IMG/VR virus record: IMGVR_UViG_3300028857_000005
Location: 1 to 64,000 of that record
DNA: 64,000 nt
Reading direction: 5' to 3' (one strand)
Source of the DNA: a virus
Lineage: Duplodnaviria > Heunggongvirae > Uroviricota > Caudoviricetes
Positions 28,674-37,112 of this stretch are shown here, one piece after another; within the stretch, counting starts at the first letter, position 1; the number at the start of each line of letters is the position of its first letter. Below the pieces are notes generated by a model. The model made no database searches. It was not told the origin of the DNA and saw only the letters and a list, made by a program, of their open reading frames with translations. The translations under genes and the position numbers were made by a program.

Positions 28674-28783
28674 CAGTTCGTGAAATAGGCGGACTAAGTT
28701 GTTTTTGTTTGATCAGGTTCTCCCTGACCTTTTTGATACCCATTATCATTTGGAAGTAACTCAACCCTAGCGCATCGAACTGC
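28674..28783 (-). ncRNA. structured spacer RNA A (terminal stem 5'-CAGTTCG...CGAACTG-3'; motifs GAUGCGCUAGG and CUUAGUCCGCCUAUUU; internal hairpin GGTCAGG-gagaa-CCTGATC)
   Basis: Fills exactly the spacer between tRNA-Gly(TCC) and tRNA-Asp. Shares motifs with copies at 28861-29000 and 37004-37112. Confidence 0.5.
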
Positions 28784-28784
28784 G

Positions 28785-28855
28785 TGCGAGTACGGAGGAT
28801 CGAACTCCGACGACCTGCTTGGAAGGCAGGGATGCAGCCATAACATCTCACTCGC
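28785..28855 (-). tRNA. tRNA-Gly (anticodon TCC)
   Basis: Acceptor GCGAGTG/TACTCGC. Anticodon stem CCTGC/GCAGG, loop CTTCCAA. T-arm CGGAG/TTCGATC/CTCCG. Confidence 0.7.
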
Positions 28856-28860
28856 ATAAA

Positions 28861-29000
28861 CATAGCTGGGTAAAAAGCGGACTAAGTGTTTTTTAAATCG
28901 CCTCCACGGCGACCCGGCATGAATTGTGCCGGGTGATTGAATCGAACAATCTGATTTCCTTTGAATGGGAAGTAACTCACTCCTAGCGCATCAGCTATGC
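28861..29000 (-). ncRNA. structured spacer RNA B (terminal stem 5'-GCATAGCTG...CAGCTATG-3'; GAUGCGCUAGG motif; tRNA T-arm mimic GATTG/TTCGATT/CAATC; hairpins ACCCGGC/GCCGGGT and CGCC/GGCG; CACUUAGUCCGCUUUUU motif)
   Basis: Direct reading. Ends pair. Not foldable as a tRNA: there is no acceptor partner for the T-arm. Confidence 0.5.
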
Positions 29001-29041
29001 GTTGTCTCTATTTATTTGTAAGTCTAATTGTAGCACACTTG

Positions 29042-29281
29042 CTACGACACGTCAACCCAACGTACTGCTGTGCGCAACAGATGATCGTAGTCATCGCTCA
29101 TGGATTCCTTGAGGTAAGCGTCAATCTCTTCCTTGGGAACACCGTTCTTGCGAAGAGCTTCTGAGACCTTGCCCATGATGGCGAAGGCGTTTCCGTCATG
29201 CCCAACGAGCTTGACGTGAATGTCGGGGTATTGAATGTCCATTATGTGTCCTTGTTTGTCGTGGTGTATCCAGCGTAGCAT
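29042..29281 (-). CDS. hypothetical protein (79 aa)
   Basis: ORF track entry. Confidence 0.4.
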   Translation of the reverse strand: MLRWIHHDKQGHIMDIQYPDIHVKLVGHDGNAFAIMGKVSEALRKNGVPKEEIDAYLKESMSDDYDHLLRTAVRWVDVS

Positions 29282-29296
29282 GTCAGCTACTCTTTG

Positions 29297-33879: not shown

Positions 33880-34095
33880 AGTCTCATACGGAGCAAGTAT
33901 GCCTACCTGTCAGTCCAGCGGAGAGCAGAGAACACGATTCCCAGTGCTTACGCACCCATCTGTTTTCGAAGCAGCGCCTGTACCTTACAGGTTTACTCTC
34001 CATAATACGCCAGTGAAAGAATCGGAATAGGTGGTTTCGCTTTTGGATGAAAGAAGTAACCCATTCCTGCGCATCTAGCGTATCTAACAATCATA
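33880..34095 (-). ncRNA. possible spacer RNA C (GAUGCGCAGG motif and GUAAAC-hairpin motif; ends not resolved)
   Basis: Shares motifs with spacer RNAs A, B and D. Lies between PurA-like gene and tRNA-Ser. Confidence 0.3.
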
Positions 34096-35232
34096 TCACA
34101 TGACCATGCGATCTTCTCTGGCTGGTCCCCATGCCTTCAACCTAATCGGCTTACCGAATGTGTCAAGTGGGAATAGCCCATCGTGAGTCATGAATCCATC
34201 AAAGACATCCAAGTGCCCGACTGCCAATGAATCAACATCGGTCATATCAATAGCCCATTGAATAGTCTCTACATCGTGCGGAGCAATCCTGAACTCACCA
34301 GCCATACTGGATTCAGTAGTATTATGAGGTTCGTCGGGAGTGAACCCAATCTCTCCCTCATGAGGTAGCGGTCCTGCACCGTGCCTAGTTGCGTAGGAGC
34401 GAAGGCAACCGGTTGTGTGTACATCTGTTACCCCTGCCTCACGCAAGATTGCCCTAGCGTTAGATGGTGTAGTCGTAGACCATGTGGTGTAAGGGTTGAA
34501 CCCGAAGTTCTCATCAAGGACGAATCCCTGTGCCCCCTCGAATACCGTATGACCATGCCTCAACTCTTCAAACAGATCAACAGTAGTGACAACATTGAAA
34601 TGGTTAAACATTGGAAGCATTGACCACACCAACGACTGCATCTTGGAATCCTTGAGGTTGGGATGATCAGGAATGATCATACCGTCACTGATGTAGAAGT
34701 CCCTGAGGGCCAGCATCTTTGGGTATACCGCGCTGAATCCAAGCTTGAAGTCTTCTGCTCGCAGTGCAAGCTCTGGGAACCTCAGGGAGTAATCAATGGT
34801 CTCGCCAAAGCCATTCCCAGTTGTTCCATGGTTGTCCTTGCCGCGTGCTTCCTCACGAATAACATTGACCAAGACGTGAAGAGCAGTGGTGACAAGAGCC
34901 TTACCGTCCACATTCAAGACAGGATTGAATCCCTTCTTGATGAGTGCGGACTTCTCATTGAAGATGTTTACGGGGTTGATCGTGCAGTAGGAACTAATCC
35001 AAGTAGGAACTCCTGACATCGTACCCGAGCCATAGCTGGCAAAGGTGTGGTGAATTCCCTTAGCGATCACATTATGGGCAGCTTGCTGTCCACCATTGAA
35101 CCTGACAACACGATCAGCATTGGAATGAGCAACGAGGGCATCGACTGTTGCGCCTTTACCCTCGTCACCCCATCCAAGACCTACAACGATATCAGCGGAG
35201 GGCTGCACTCTTCGTACCCGAGCGCTTGACAA
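34096..35232 (-). CDS. adenylosuccinate-synthetase-family protein (PurA/PurZ-like, 378 aa)
   Basis: N-terminal GLGWGDEGKGATVD P-loop. GGQQAAHN. C-terminal GHLDVFDG. Short, archaeal-like length. Confidence 0.8.
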   Translation of the reverse strand: MSSARVRRVQPSADIVVGLGWGDEGKGATVDALVAHSNADRVVRFNGGQQAAHNVIAKGIHHTFASYGSGTMSGVPTWISSYCTINPVNIFNEKSALIKKGFNPVLNVDGKALVTTALHVLVNVIREEARGKDNHGTTGNGFGETIDYSLRFPELALRAEDFKLGFSAVYPKMLALRDFYISDGMIIPDHPNLKDSKMQSLVWSMLPMFNHFNVVTTVDLFEELRHGHTVFEGAQGFVLDENFGFNPYTTWSTTTPSNARAILREAGVTDVHTTGCLRSYATRHGAGPLPHEGEIGFTPDEPHNTTESSMAGEFRIAPHDVETIQWAIDMTDVDSLAVGHLDVFDGFMTHDGLFPLDTFGKPIRLKAWGPAREDRMVM

Positions 35233-36130
35233 TAGCGTCGGTTACCCGAACAGCGATTGCGTTTCCGACAGTTGCGGACAGATCAGCCTTGATGTCATCA
35301 ATGCTACGACCAAGATCGTAAGCGAAGAGACCGGCGATCATCTCAGGAATTGCCGAGACATCCTGAACGATAACCACATTGTCAGGTCCGAAGAGATTTC
35401 CGTAGAACTCTTCCGAACGCTGGTACTTGGCTGCGGAGTTGTTGATCAGGAGGATTGTGACATCCCACTTCTCTGTAGCTGCCGCTGCGATACCCTCGAA
35501 GGACAGGTCACCGAGAGGCTGCTCACCGATGTACTTCTCGATGTGTGCGGCTGTAATCGGAATCTGCTTCTCATCAGCGATGAGGTAGACCTTGCCCTTG
35601 ACACCACGCTTGTCGAAAGCGTCAGTGCGGGTGTGGTATGCGAGGTAGTAGAACAACAGGTTGGAGGTCTCTCCACTGTTTCCACCACCATGACCCTCAA
35701 GGAACAGAACGTCCAGCGCCTCATCGATCTTGATACCAGATTCGAACTGGCTCATCTGCAACGGAACACGCTCATCATTCGCAGCGTCACCGTAAGCGGC
35801 AACTGCGATCTGAACGTCCTCAACGCCCTTTGCAGTGGTCAGATCGAAGACAGTGTTGAGCTTCTTCTGCATCTCACCGGGAATCGAACCCATGGAGCCG
35901 GTCTGGTCAAAACCAATGACCATCGGCTTCGTGAAGGGATGCTCCACGGTGTCAAGGGACTCACGAATGTTCTCGCCAGCCTTGTTGAGCTTCTTTACGT
36001 CAACAAGCTCATGTGCCTCATAGCGACCAGTAGCCTTGACGGTCCTGTCGTATGCGAATGCACTTCCTGTTGCGGCTCGCGTTGCGCTCACTGCGCTGTA
36101 GGCCGCTGCCGACCAACTTCCACCACCCAT
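35192..36130 (-). CDS. vWA-domain protein (MIDAS DQTGSMGS)
   Basis: VIGFDQTGSMGS motif; 312 aa. Overlaps the PurA-like start. Confidence 0.6.
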   Translation of the reverse strand: MGGGSWSAAAYSAVSATRAATGSAFAYDRTVKATGRYEAHELVDVKKLNKAGENIRESLDTVEHPFTKPMVIGFDQTGSMGSIPGEMQKKLNTVFDLTTAKGVEDVQIAVAAYGDAANDERVPLQMSQFESGIKIDEALDVLFLEGHGGGNSGETSNLLFYYLAYHTRTDAFDKRGVKGKVYLIADEKQIPITAAHIEKYIGEQPLGDLSFEGIAAAATEKWDVTILLINNSAAKYQRSEEFYGNLFGPDNVVIVQDVSAIPEMIAGLFAYDLGRSIDDIKADLSATVGNAIAVRVTDAIVKRSGTKSAALR

Positions 36131-36141
36131 TATGTTTCTCC

Positions 36142-36975
36142 TTAAATCATCGGTACGGCTGGGACATCAAGTGGATGCCACTTCGCAGGTCCGTACAACT
36201 TGGTTGCTACATCATTAACTTCATTGAAGAAGTCTCTTGCATTGGCTACGCCAAACGAGTGCTTCTTGAACGTTTCTAAGAGGAGCTTATCAGGGACTGA
36301 GGTCTTTGTCAACATGGCTGCCAGTTGGGCAACCATCATCTTCTCATCTGCCCCCGCTCCACCGAAGTACCTTGCAGGAGTAGGTGCGTCAGGCTTCAAT
36401 GCCAGACGACTATCCAATTCAACGCTGTGCCACCATCCATCAAGCATGAGGCCATGCTCACTTGGGAGTAGTGCGACTGTTCGAGGGTTGATATCTCCAT
36501 GAACGATTCCAGACTCAGCAGCTTTCTTGATTGCCGCCGCTCCACGCTTAGCGATCCATACCGCAGTGCGGGAATCAAACTTGGGGAAGTCCTCGACAAA
36601 CCACCAACCTTCTCCGTAATTCAGGGTCAGGTGGTCAGGTCCAAAGGAATGAATCTTAGGAAAGAACCTATTGAATTCAGCAGGCAGCTTGGCAAGTTGC
36701 TCAAGCGCACGCACAGCGACGATCTTACGATCATCGAAATCTTTTTCCATGCTCCATGCGATTGCATGTGCTGTCGTTGCGGTGCCATTGGCTACACGCA
36801 GTTGGTAATCTGGACCTTCAAAGAGAGGTACCAGTTTCACGAATGCCTCATGAGCATTGGGATCGGTATTCACGTCAGGGTGAAATTCACGCTGTAAGTC
36901 CCTAAGAGCATCCTTGGTCTTGGGAATGTTCAATGCCCGCCAAGTTTTGGCAGTCATGATCTTGGTGATATCCAT
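36142..36975 (-). CDS. protein-kinase-fold / APH-like phosphotransferase (HGDINPRTV catalytic loop, LDGWW)
   Basis: HGDxNxxN catalytic-loop-like and D-containing DFG-equivalent motifs. Confidence 0.5.
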   Translation of the reverse strand: MDITKIMTAKTWRALNIPKTKDALRDLQREFHPDVNTDPNAHEAFVKLVPLFEGPDYQLRVANGTATTAHAIAWSMEKDFDDRKIVAVRALEQLAKLPAEFNRFFPKIHSFGPDHLTLNYGEGWWFVEDFPKFDSRTAVWIAKRGAAAIKKAAESGIVHGDINPRTVALLPSEHGLMLDGWWHSVELDSRLALKPDAPTPARYFGGAGADEKMMVAQLAAMLTKTSVPDKLLLETFKKHSFGVANARDFFNEVNDVATKLYGPAKWHPLDVPAVPMI

Positions 36976-37003
36976 AGTGATCCTTCGTCGTGGTGGAAGT
37001 TAA

Positions 37004-37112
37004 GAGCTAGAGAAAAGGGCGACCTAAGTGTTTACTGTCGGAATCGAACCGACTTTATCTCATTCATTATATGGGTGGCCCGCCATGGGCCGAAGTAACT
37101 CAAGTCTATCGC
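37004..37112 (-). ncRNA. structured spacer RNA D (terminal stem 5'-GAGCTAGA...TCTAGCTC-3'; GAUGCGAUAGA motif; T-arm mimic GTCGG/TTCGATT/CCGAC; CACUUAGGUCGCCCUUUUC motif)
   Basis: Direct reading. Abuts the 3' end of the tRNA at 37114. Confidence 0.5.

What the first reader, a model, noticed from the sequence alone, without database searches (positions are those of the whole stretch)
28674..37112. Family of structured spacer RNAs in the tRNA array, flanking the phage Ro60 gene, with covarying terminal stems and a tRNA T-arm mimic
At least three minus-strand intergenic segments share conserved single-stranded motifs, 5'-GAUGCGCUAGG and CACUUAGUCCGC(C/U)UUUU-3'. They are A (28674-28783), B (28861-29000) and D (37004-37112).

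The terminal helix is different in every copy but fully complementary in each: CAGTTCG/CGAACTG in A, GCATAGCTG/CAGCTATG in B, GAGCTAGA/TCTAGCTC in D. Compensatory changes like this are the classic signature of a conserved RNA structure rather than a protein-coding or purely regulatory DNA element.

B and D each carry a perfect tRNA-like T-arm (GATTG-TTCGATT-CAATC and GTCGG-TTCGATT-CCGAC) that cannot be completed into a tRNA, because no acceptor partner exists. A and B exactly fill the spacers between tRNA-Asp, tRNA-Gly and the next gene. Weaker copies lie at about 33880-34095 and 40540-40890.

The copies bracket a Ro60/TROVE+vWA orthologue (30586-32121). Bacterial and mycobacteriophage Ro60 genes are known to be accompanied by Y RNAs, which have a long stem formed by the 5' and 3' ends plus a tRNA-like module. 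These elements are therefore candidate phage Y-RNA-like partners. An alternative is a new class of tRNA-cluster stable RNAs comparable to T4 species 1 and 2.
Basis: partly seen in the sequence, partly recalled or inferred. Interest (0 to 1): 0.85.

Follow-up and report, generated by a model that had tools for sequence, protein, structure and literature searches.

The report
Phage Y RNAs around Ro60 gene
Four small structured RNA genes scattered through this phage's tRNA cluster are relatives of the Y RNAs that partner the Ro60 protein encoded next to them. This kind of RNA is already known from bacteria and a few phages, and here it carries a modified protein-docking motif.

Summary
Four minus-strand elements share one scaffold: A 28674-28782, B 28860-29000, C 34004-34084 and D 37004-37121.

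The scaffold is a terminal helix P1 that differs in every copy, a 5' box (G)AUGCG(N0-2)A(G), a helix P2 with an invariant G.U, the motif GUUACUUC, a variable centre, and a 3' loop G(C)NYUUUUC.

A descriptor defined on other phages finds exactly these four in the window, against 0.11 per shuffle.

The scaffold recurs next to Ro60 on the Ro60 strand. There are 3-6 copies in all eight Ro60-encoding actinophage loci examined, plus further copies in five metagenomic relatives. One syntenic relative has all four orthologues in place.

P1 and P2 covary strongly: 92-96% of cells are paired, against 25-49% in slid controls.

Two copies in Streptomyces phage pSt2308 match Rfam YrlA as well as the published mycobacteriophage YrlA does (28-33 bits). 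B has the YrlA order of V hairpin, T arm, capped acceptor-like hairpin and D-like hairpin.

These are therefore Y RNA homologues of the YrlA/YrlB kind, with a variant Ro box. They are new members of a known kind.

Its copy at 40.5 kb is the tmRNA, and the "single-stranded" motifs are partly helical.

The parts
28674..28782 (-). Y-RNA-like element A (109 nt). P1 is CAGUUCG (28776-28782) with CGAACUG (28674-28680). The 5' box AUGCGCUA is at 28768-28775. P2 is GGGUUGAGUU (28758-28767) with AACUUAGUCC (28691-28700). UUACUUC is at 28753-28759. The centre has a V-like hairpin and a 7-bp hairpin at 28711-28729. The 3' loop GCCUAUUUCA is at 28681-28690. There is no T arm, so it is YrlB-like.
   Evidence: (MFE shows the scaffold, z=-2.3). 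Orthologues lie between tRNA-Gly(tcc) and tRNA-Asp in L130 (13417-13497) and L136 (3683-3816), with a fully different but complementary P1.
28860..29000 (-). Y-RNA-like element B (141 nt), the YrlA type. P1 is 28992-29000 with 28860-28868. The box AUGCGCUA is at 28984-28991. P2 is 28975-28983 with 28879-28887. UUACUUC is at 28969-28975. The V hairpin is at 28956-28971 and the T arm at 28935-28951. The 7-8 bp capped acceptor-like hairpin is at 28913-28933 and the short D-like hairpin CGCC-GUGGA-GGCG at 28899-28911. The 3' loop is at 28869-28878.
   Evidence: (z=-4.2, 0 of 200 shuffles fold as well). The T-AS-D model built from relatives scores 16.9 bits, E=1.3e-3. The orthologue L130 13200-13340 has the same module order with compensatory T, AS and D stems.
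34004..34084 (-). Y-RNA-like element C (81 nt), the minimal type. P1 is 34075-34084 with 34004-34013. The box AUGCGCA is at 34068-34074. P2 is 34059-34067 with 34024-34032. UUACUUC is at 34053-34059. The 3' loop GAUUCUUUCA is at 34014-34023. It starts 11 nt after the stop codon of the adenylosuccinate-synthetase-like ORF.
   Evidence: best hit, E=0.0015; z=-3.1. An orthologue lies at the same place in L130 (7757-7845). The element is also present in L134, which is the same phage.
37004..37121 (-). Y-RNA-like element D (118 nt). P1 is 37114-37121 with 37004-37011. The box UGCGAUA is at 37107-37113. P2 is 37098-37106 with 37021-37029. UUACUUC is at 37092-37098. A hairpin GGCCC-AUGGC-GGGCC is at 37077-37091 and the T arm at 37037-37053. 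The 3' loop is at 37012-37020. It starts 1 nt after tRNA-Leu(gag).
   Evidence: (z=-3.4). ARAGORN calls the core 37028-37100 'tRNA-Ile(aat)', but the Rfam tRNA model does not report it at E<=10. The positional orthologue L130 4473-4585 keeps the scaffold but has different modules.
30586..32121 (-). Ro60 orthologue (TROVE ring plus vWA/MIDAS with DVSGSM), the presumed protein partner. The likely true start is about 8 codons downstream, because the homologues are 502-503 aa.
29027..29055 (-). Promoter-like site TTGACG-17-TACAAT with an upstream TG, 26 nt 5' of B. It could drive a B, tRNA-Gly, A, tRNA-Asp transcript.
   Evidence: The evidence is weak, because the number of such sites in the region is not above the shuffle expectation. 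The GCTACAAT is conserved upstream of the B orthologue in L130 and L131.

Best explanation
A, B, C and D are four paralogous phage Y RNAs, homologues of bacterial YrlA/YrlB. All four share one docking scaffold and differ in their centres.

The scaffold is:
- an end-to-end helix P1;
- an asymmetric internal loop, 5' AUGCG(N0-2)A(G) opposite 3' G(C)NYUUUUC;
- a helix P2 ending in an invariant UGAG/CUUA with a G.U pair;
- the motif GUUACUUC.

The centres are a permuted tRNA-like domain in B, a T arm plus hairpins in D, and simple hairpins in A and C.

Proposed mechanism (inferred, not shown):
1. The RNAs are transcribed within the long minus-strand tRNA/mRNA transcripts.
2. A, B and D are released by the RNase P and RNase Z/E cuts that mature the flanking tRNAs. 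P1 seals the ends.
3. The phage Ro60 ring binds the constant scaffold. The AUGCG box takes the place of the GNCGAA/CGAA box of YrlA and phiLo Yrl RNAs.
4. The variable module of each paralogue gates the Ro60 cavity or tethers Ro60 to a different partner. Host PNPase is the precedent (RYPER complex in Deinococcus and Salmonella; phiLo Ro60-Yrl-PNPase).
5. This would redirect host exoribonucleolytic RNA surveillance or decay during infection.
For: Shown directly:
- Four copies and no more. The descriptor gives 4 hits against 0.11 per shuffle. The HMM from other phages gives these four as its top hits.
- The MFE folds of all four show P1, loop and P2, with z from -2.3 to -4.2.
- The same scaffold occurs in 3-6 copies next to Ro60, on its strand. 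This holds in Atuin, pSt2308, BRock, Neville, GiJojo, LuckySocke, VanLee and Frankenweenie. It also holds in the metagenomic relatives L130, L132, L135 and L136.
- Covariation among 22 elements from relatives: 91.8% of cells paired, 15 of 16 pairs with compensatory change, slid controls 34-49%.
- Covariation in the window's own clade: 95.8% paired against 25-49% in slid controls.
- All four elements are positionally conserved in L130 (Ro60 69% identical), each with a different P1.
- Association with Ro60: among 120 IMG/VR loci carrying the 5' box, the 3 with Ro60 each have 3 tandem boxes directly upstream of it, and none of the 116 loci with fewer than 2 scaffolds has Ro60. Fisher p=1.4e-5.
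- Link to YrlA: pSt2308 copies s2 and s5 hit Rfam RF02553 at 33.3 bits (E=3e-5) and 28 bits. The published type of phage YrlA, in Bxz1, scores 32.5 bits.
- Bxz1 has the same layout, with a GCCGA(A/G/U) box and GGUUAC(C)UC.
- Some copies carry a literal GCGAAG box: the A orthologue in L130, Neville n2 and n4, and BRock b4.
- The T-AS-D domain of relatives covaries, with 97.9% of cells paired.

From the literature:
- YrlA RNAs lie within 4 kb of Ro60 on the same strand, carry GNCGAAN0-1G, YUAY and T/AS/D arms, and occur in 22 phages (PMC4201824).
- phiLo Ro60 binds two phage Yrl RNAs and host PNPase (PMC12135203).
Against: - No window copy reaches any Rfam Y RNA or YrlA threshold, or even E<=10.
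- The literal GNCGAA box is absent from all four window copies.
- A and C have no tRNA-like module.
- B matches my T-AS-D model only weakly (16.9 bits), below several tRNA-tRNA junction artefacts.
- D lies 4.9 kb from Ro60, beyond the 4 kb typical of YrlA.
- My scaffold covariance model could not recover the copies, because of the long variable insert.
- The two pair-count alignments were built by me in a register chosen to pair, so they lean towards the structure. The strands are, however, anchored by the invariant motifs.
- Expression, processing, Ro60 binding and any effector are all untested.
Confidence: 0.85

Rival explanations
1. The elements are only processing spacers of the tRNA operon. 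On this view the structured leader and trailer helices guide RNase P, Z, E or III and are then degraded, with no function of their own and no link to Ro60.
For: A, B and D abut tRNAs within 1-5 nt. P1 brings the two ends together, as processing stems in rRNA operons do.
Against: In the BRock-like phages and Neville the copies stand in tandem with no tRNA between them. C follows a protein gene. The conserved parts are the internal loop, the P2 G.U pair and GUUACUUC, not the cleavage-proximal ends. The elements track Ro60 rather than tRNAs. Most spacers in this window's own tRNA array lack the scaffold.
Confidence: 0.06
2. The elements are decayed or chimeric tRNA genes, that is, pseudo-tRNAs left by duplication within the array. 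D would be a poor tRNA-Ile(AAU).
For: B and D have perfect T arms. ARAGORN calls D's core a tRNA. GenBank annotators have called tRNAs inside related elements in GiJojo, LuckySocke, VanLee and Frankenweenie.
Against: A and C have no tRNA part at all, yet share the scaffold. The Rfam tRNA model does not report D at E<=10. D's cloverleaf is not kept in its orthologue in L130, whereas the scaffold is. An AAU anticodon for Ile is not used in bacteria (general knowledge). The scaffold outside the tRNA-like part is the most conserved region, which is the opposite of what decay would leave.
Confidence: 0.04
3. The elements are a separate class of stable tRNA-cluster RNAs with their own function, like T4 species 1 and 2. 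On this view they sit near Ro60 only because both lie in the tRNA region.
For: No direct evidence of Ro60 binding exists. The window copies miss the literal CGAA box and the Rfam models.
Against: In Neville, VanLee and Frankenweenie there is little or no tRNA array around Ro60, yet the copies sit immediately upstream of it. Intermediate copies connect the family to YrlA in both sequence and structure.
Confidence: 0.05

Closest known systems
YrlA / YrlB bacterial and phage Y RNAs (Chen et al. 2014, PMC4201824; Rfam RF02553)
   Same: They are encoded beside a Ro60 orthologue on the same strand, with several paralogues per genome. The 5' and 3' ends pair. A conserved box sits near the 5' end in an internal loop. 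A YUAY motif (here UUAC) opens the V region. B has the order V, T arm, capped acceptor-like hairpin and D arm. Other paralogues lack the tRNA-like domain, as YrlB does. Related copies in pSt2308 score like the known mycobacteriophage YrlA on RF02553.
   Different: The box is AUGCG(C/A)UAG or AUGCGCAG rather than GNCGAAN0-1G. The conserved GUUACUUC and the pyrimidine-rich 3' loop G(C)NYUUUUC(UA) are specific to this actinophage subfamily. There are four to six paralogues rather than two. In this window they are scattered over 8.4 kb among tRNA genes instead of lying in one block upstream of Ro60. B's D arm is reduced. No window copy is detected by RF02553.
Yrl1 / Yrl2 of Thermus phage phiLo with phiRo60 (PMC12135203; PDB 9KOP, 9L5Y)
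   Same: It is a phage-encoded Ro60 with Y-like RNAs next to the gene. The RNAs have a stem, bulge and stem layout with the box in the internal loop. phiLo Ro60 is the closest solved structure to the window's Ro60. It is the only phage system with shown binding to Ro60 and host PNPase, and so it is the functional model used here.
   Different: phiLo has two RNAs with a CGAA box, upstream of the gene, and no tRNA array. Its RNA sequences were not compared here because they are not held by the tools.
Metazoan Y RNAs (Rfam RF00019)
   Same: The architecture is the same: a terminal stem from both ends, a conserved helix and loop that dock Ro60, and a variable central loop that differs between paralogues. 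From memory, and not tested, the vertebrate stem (GGUCCGAGUG/CACUUGACC) also contains GAGU paired to ACUU through a G.U, as P2 does here.
   Different: There was no RF00019 hit at E<=10. Metazoan Y RNAs have no tRNA-like module, are made by Pol III, and have La-bound 3' ends.
T4 species 1 and 2 RNAs (stable RNAs of the T4 tRNA cluster)
   Same: They are small stable RNAs co-transcribed and co-processed with phage tRNAs.
   Different: They have no known protein partner of the Ro60 type and no shared motifs. The comparison is from memory only and was not tested.

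Membership tests
YrlA/YrlB bacterial-type Y RNA | Encoded close to (within about 4 kb of) a Ro60/TROVE gene, on the same strand | tested here: met
   Ro60 is at 30586-32121(-). B lies 1.6 kb and A 1.8 kb downstream, C 1.9 kb upstream and D 4.9 kb upstream, all on the minus strand. D is slightly beyond 4 kb.
YrlA/YrlB bacterial-type Y RNA | 5' and 3' ends pair into a stem, followed by an internal loop and a second stem | tested here: met
   The MFE folds of all four show this. Covariation of P1 and P2 supports it: 91.8% and 95.8% of cells paired, with 15 of 16 and 10 of 16 pairs showing compensatory change.
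YrlA/YrlB bacterial-type Y RNA | GNCGAAN0-1G (CGAA) box near the 5' end | tested here: not met
   The window copies read AUGCGCUAGG (A, B), AUGCGCAGG (C) and AUGCGAUAGA (D) at the equivalent position. A literal GCGAAG occurs at the same position in the A orthologue of L130 and in Neville and BRock copies. This makes it a variant of the box rather than a different element.
YrlA/YrlB bacterial-type Y RNA | YUAY motif at the start of the V region | tested here: met
   UUAC within GUUACUUC is present in all four copies and in all 33 curated relatives. TACTTC is invariant.
YrlA (tRNA-like subclass) | Permuted tRNA-like domain: T arm, then capped acceptor-like hairpin, then D arm | tested here: inconclusive
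   B has all three in the right order, by eye and in the MFE fold, and so does its orthologue in L130. The D arm is reduced, however. My model scores B at only 16.9 bits, E=1.3e-3, among tRNA-junction artefacts. D has a T arm only. A and C have none, so they are YrlB-like.
YrlA (Rfam RF02553) | Score at or above the gathering threshold of 69 bits | tested here: not met
   A, B and D gave no hit at E<=10. As a control, the known Bxz1 YrlA reaches only 32.5 bits and pSt2308 copies reach 33.3 and 28 bits. The threshold therefore excludes known phage members too.
Y RNA (any) | Bound and stabilised by Ro60 | not testable with these tools
   This needs RIP or EMSA. The only evidence here is genomic association.
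Metazoan Y_RNA (RF00019) / Deinococcus_Y_RNA (RF01053) | Match to the covariance model | tested here: not met
   There was no hit at E<=10 in 28500-29200 or 33600-37700.
tRNA | Cloverleaf scoring above the Rfam tRNA threshold, with a usable anticodon | tested here: not met
   ARAGORN calls D's core tRNA-Ile(aat). RF00005 reports nothing there at gathering threshold or at E<=10. The cloverleaf is not conserved in the L130 orthologue.

The most novel reading that the evidence does not exclude
These phages carry a modular adaptor kit. One constant Ro60-docking scaffold is combined with rapidly exchanged effector modules (tRNA mimic, T arm only, plain hairpins), giving 4-6 paralogues per genome. 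Each paralogue would send the phage Ro60 ring to a different host target: PNPase, tRNA-processing or tRNA-modifying enzymes, or tRNA-targeting defence nucleases. The interleaving with the phage's own tRNA genes would then mean that the system works in tRNA quality control or in protecting tRNA from host anticodon nucleases during infection.
Probability: 0.25. Interest if true: 0.65.

Novelty: new member of a known kind. Interest (0 to 1): 0.4.

Why it matters
- It extends phage Y RNAs from mycobacteriophages, a few jumbo phages and Thermus phage phiLo to a broad set of Streptomyces, Gordonia and Arthrobacter phages and their metagenomic relatives.
- It shows that the Ro box tolerates CGAA changing to CG(C)UA or CGCA.
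- It shows that these phages keep whole sets of 4-6 paralogues in which the docking scaffold is conserved while the effector modules turn over quickly.
- It has practical value. Neither the Rfam model nor genome annotation finds these RNAs. Several are currently annotated as odd tRNAs (GiJojo Arg-cct, LuckySocke Ser-gct, VanLee Arg-tct, Frankenweenie 91-nt Pro, and ARAGORN's Ile-aat here) or as small hypothetical ORFs (Neville gp88-90).
- It does not reveal a new kind of system.

Tried and rejected
1. A scaffold covariance model, R1 (51 positions, built from a condensed alignment of relatives), was run with filters off. It failed. Only C appeared, at 10.5 bits and E about 3, because the 20-100 nt variable centre has to be absorbed by a local end. 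I replaced it with an HMM of the 5' half and a helix-plus-motif descriptor with shuffles.

2. MAFFT could not align the 3' halves or the T-AS-D region of B in register. I therefore used fixed-length condensed constructs (A2, A5), which lean towards the structure.

3. Megablast of the region against the phage collection found no match.

4. Two IMG/VR scans found nothing: one with Ro60 peptides and one with the exact 21-mer.

It was only useful afterwards, as a co-occurrence sample.

6. The T-AS-D model R2 is unspecific inside a tRNA array, because it also scores junctions between adjacent tRNAs, such as 21340-21394.

7. It is the tmRNA plus a spacer with only an 11-nt resemblance.

8. The idea of a degenerate fifth copy at 33845-33855 (UGUGCGCUAGG) was rejected. 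There is no UUACUUC and no P1 or P2, and no HMM or descriptor hit.

9. I rejected the idea that the elements are MITE-like or homing-endonuclease repeats. P1 differs in every copy, so there is no shared terminal repeat.

10. The supplementary tables of Chen et al. 2014 and the reviews PMC10870794 and PMC6047535 are not held.

Full report
**Context**

The window has 49.8% G+C. It carries a minus-strand array of 28 tRNA genes plus a tmRNA between 21.3 and 44.6 kb. Next to the array is a replication module with DnaE-type polymerase, DnaB, primase and RecA.

There is no near-identical phage in the GenBank phage collection. A JGI metagenome contig, L134, is 99.93% identical over 28998-36362.

The ORF at 30586-32121(-) is a Ro60 orthologue:
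- Pfam TROVE 1.5e-15 plus the Ro60 vWA domain.
- 46% identity to 'Ro-like RNA binding proteins' of Streptomyces and Arthrobacter phages.
- Its closest solved structure is the Ro60 of Thermus phage phiLo, E=9e-28.

**The observation**

With tools the picture sharpens to four elements, all on the minus strand:
- A, 28674-28782
- B, 28860-29000
- C, 34004-34084
- D, 37004-37121

Each element is built in the same order:
1. P1, 7-10 bp formed by the two ends, different in every copy.
2. A 5' loop, (G)AUGCG(N0-2)A(G).
3. P2, 8-10 bp, ending UGAG/CUUA with a G.U pair.
4. The motif (G)UUACUUC.
5. A variable centre.
6. The 3' strand of P2.
7. A pyrimidine-rich 3' loop, G(C)NYUUUUC.
8. The 3' strand of P1.

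The minimum-free-energy folds of all four show this layout, with z-scores of -2.3, -4.2, -3.1 and -3.4.

Two tests used information from other phages only:
- A 25-position HMM of the 5' half ranks C, A, B and D as the four best hits in the 64 kb (E 0.0015-0.08; the next hit has E about 1).
- A descriptor (box, TACTTC, P1 at least 7 of 8, P2 at least 7 of 8) finds exactly these four. It finds none on the plus strand and a mean of 0.11 per dinucleotide shuffle.

- D extends 9 nt further, to 37121.
- The 'weak copy' near 34 kb is a real fourth copy, C.
- The one at 40.5 kb is the tmRNA.
- Much of the two 'single-stranded' motifs is in fact helix P2.

**Relatives**

I fetched eight Ro60-encoding actinophage loci: Arthrobacter phage Atuin; Streptomyces phages pSt2308, BRock, GiJojo, LuckySocke and Frankenweenie; and Gordonia phages Neville and VanLee. 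Every one carries 3-6 copies of the same scaffold on the Ro60 strand. They mostly lie in tandem immediately upstream of Ro60.

Closer metagenomic relatives have them too. L130 (Ro60 69% identical) is syntenic with the window. It has an element at each of the four positions:
- after tRNA-Leu;
- after the purA-like gene;
- before tRNA-Gly(tcc);
- between tRNA-Gly and tRNA-Asp.

In each case P1 is entirely different but complementary, the scaffold is conserved, and the central modules are often different.

Pair counts on condensed alignments:

| Set | Cells paired | Pairs with compensatory change | Slid controls |
|---|---|---|---|
| 22 elements from relatives (A2) | 91.8% | 15 of 16 | 34-49% |
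| 12 elements of the window's own clade (A5) | 95.8% | 10 of 16 | 25-49% |

In the window's clade the inner P2 pairs are invariant, including the G.U. I built these alignments in the pairing register, so they lean towards the structure. The strands are, however, anchored by invariant motifs on both sides.

**Link to Ro60**

I used 120 IMG/VR loci that happen to carry the 5' box pattern as a sample.
- Four loci have two or more full scaffolds. Three of these carry a Ro60 homologue directly downstream on the same strand, each preceded by three tandem boxes.
- None of the other 116 loci has Ro60.
- Fisher p=1.4e-5.

**Link to known Y RNAs**

Rfam contains YrlA (RF02553, gathering threshold 69 bits).
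- The window copies give no hit even at E<=10.
- pSt2308 copy s2 matches the full model at 33.3 bits (E=3e-5) and s5 at 28 bits.
- As a positive control I ran the Ro60 locus of mycobacteriophage Bxz1, from the phage group in which Chen et al. 2014 reported YrlA. Its YrlA reaches only 32.5 bits.

The threshold therefore misses known phage members, and the actinophage copies score like them.

The Bxz1 locus holds three tandem elements with the same layout. They use a GCCGA(A/G/U) box and GGUUAC(C)UC.

Chen et al. define YrlA by these features (PMC4201824):
- proximity to Ro60 on the same strand;
- a GNCGAAN0-1G box near the 5' end;
- a YUAY motif opening the V region;
- T, acceptor-like and D stem-loops.

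The window copies meet all of these except the literal box. In its place they have CGCUAG, CGAUAG or CGCAG. Some family members carry GCGAAG at the same position (the A orthologue in L130, and Neville and BRock copies), so this is a variant of the same box.

The modules of the four copies are:
- B has the order V hairpin, T arm, 7-8 bp capped acceptor-like hairpin and a short D-like hairpin. Its orthologue in L130 has the same order, with compensatory changes in every stem and a more canonical D arm.
- The T-AS-D domain of relatives covaries, with 97.9% of cells paired. The model built from it scores B at only 16.9 bits and is unspecific in a tRNA array. B's membership of the tRNA-like subclass is therefore likely but not proven.
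- D has only a T arm plus hairpins.
- A and C have no tRNA-like part, as YrlB does not.

**How it most likely works**

The steps below are inferred.
1. The elements are transcribed with the tRNAs. A promoter-like TTGACG-17-TACAAT lies just 5' of B, but this is weak evidence.
2. A, B and D lie 1-5 nt from mature tRNA ends. RNase P and RNase Z/E cuts would therefore release them with P1 sealing the ends.
3. The phage Ro60 binds the constant scaffold.
4. The variable centre gates the Ro60 cavity or tethers it to a partner.

The precedents are the Ro60-Y RNA-PNPase machine of Deinococcus and Salmonella (PMC4201824) and phiLo Ro60, which binds two phage Yrl RNAs and host PNPase (PMC12135203).

Nothing about expression, binding or effectors has been tested.

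**Rivals**

- Pure processing spacers are unlikely. In several phages the copies stand in tandem without tRNAs, and C follows a protein gene. The conserved parts are the loop and P2, not the ends.
- Pseudo-tRNAs are unlikely. A and C have no tRNA part. The Rfam tRNA model ignores D, and D's ARAGORN cloverleaf is not kept in its orthologue.
- An independent class of tRNA-cluster RNAs is unlikely, given the tie to Ro60 in phages with hardly any tRNAs around it.

**Novelty and score**

Y RNAs next to Ro60 are known in more than 250 bacteria and 22 phages, and binding has been shown for a Thermus phage. This finding adds new members. It can be seen as a recognisable actinophage subfamily with a variant Ro box, GUUACUUC and a U-rich 3' loop. 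There are 4-6 paralogues per genome, with a conserved scaffold and fast-changing modules, here scattered through a tRNA array.

It is useful for annotation, because several relatives' copies are annotated as odd tRNAs or small ORFs. It also bears on the question of what the variable modules recruit. It would not surprise a specialist. Interest is 0.4.

Noticed in passing
window 33728-33809 (-): An unannotated tRNA-like gene. It matches the Rfam tRNA-Sec model at 34.3 bits (E=3e-4, below the gathering threshold), and ARAGORN does not call it. It has a long acceptor, a 6-bp D stem and a long variable arm. Its anticodon loop is CUGGAAC (GGA, Ser). Orthologues in L130 (about 8023-8105) and L132 (about 384-470) keep the GGA loop with compensatory stem changes. 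It is probably an atypical tRNA-Ser.
   Followed up: partly
window about 33919-34001 (-), directly 3' of element C: A conserved multi-hairpin RNA, AUGGAGAGUAAACC...UCUGCUCUCCG. It has an orthologue at L130 7846-7930 showing a compensatory change (GUGC-GUAA-GCAC becomes GCGC-GAAA-GCGC). There is no Rfam hit, and its identity is unknown.
   Followed up: partly
window 37375-37536 (-), spacer between tRNA-Val and tRNA-Leu(tag): Two consecutive units of T arm, hairpin and D arm. My T-AS-D model scores them at 39 and 31 bits. Rfam YrlA gives 21.8 bits and a partial tRNA match gives 24.7 bits. They have no AUGCG/UUACUUC scaffold and no ARAGORN tRNA call. They may be further tRNA mimics or decayed tRNAs.
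   Followed up: partly
window 27467-27541 (-): An isolated permuted tRNA-like module: a T arm, an 8-bp GAAA-capped hairpin and a D arm, closed by a 6-bp stem ACUGAC/GUCGGU. It lies inside a roughly 300-nt non-coding stretch. My model scores it at 23 bits, and there is no Rfam hit.
   Followed up: partly
L005 5787-5861, L006 5777-5850, L007 5704-5775, L008 5745-5835, L004 5463-5873: GenBank annotations in related phages lie inside Y-RNA-like elements and are probably misannotations. These are tRNA-Arg(cct) in GiJojo, a 74-nt tRNA-Ser(gct) in LuckySocke, tRNA-Arg(tct) in VanLee, a 91-nt tRNA-Pro in Frankenweenie, and the small hypothetical CDS gp88-90 in Neville. ARAGORN's tRNA-Ile(aat) at window 37028-37100 is the same artefact.
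   Followed up: partly
window 40798-40902 (-): The spacer between tRNA-Glu(ctc) and the tmRNA contains AUUGCGCUAGGGU, which resembles the 5' box of A and B. It has no UUACUUC and does not fold into P1/P2. It could be a remnant or a coincidence.
   Followed up: yes
L129 1840-2200 (Mycobacterium phage Bxz1, upstream of gp220 Ro60): There are three tandem Y-RNA-like elements, not only the one tRNA-like YrlA. Each has a P1, a GCCGA(A/G/U) box and GGUUAC(C)UC or GGUUAUC. Only the middle one hits Rfam YrlA, at 32.5 bits, which is far below the family's gathering score of 69.
   Followed up: partly
window 28127-28564 (-), 30194-30604 (-): An HNH endonuclease gene and an endonuclease VII gene are interspersed with the tRNA, Y RNA and Ro60 genes. 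Relatives carry HNH or EndoVII genes at similar places (L130, L135, L136). This suggests that homing-endonuclease traffic helps to shuffle this region.
   Followed up: no
window 35192-36130 (-) and 36142-36975 (-): Two conserved ORFs lie between C and D and have no Pfam hit. By eye, the first has a vWA/MIDAS-like DQTGSMG motif and the second an N-terminal J-domain-like HPD motif. Both are syntenic in L130 and L134.
   Followed up: no
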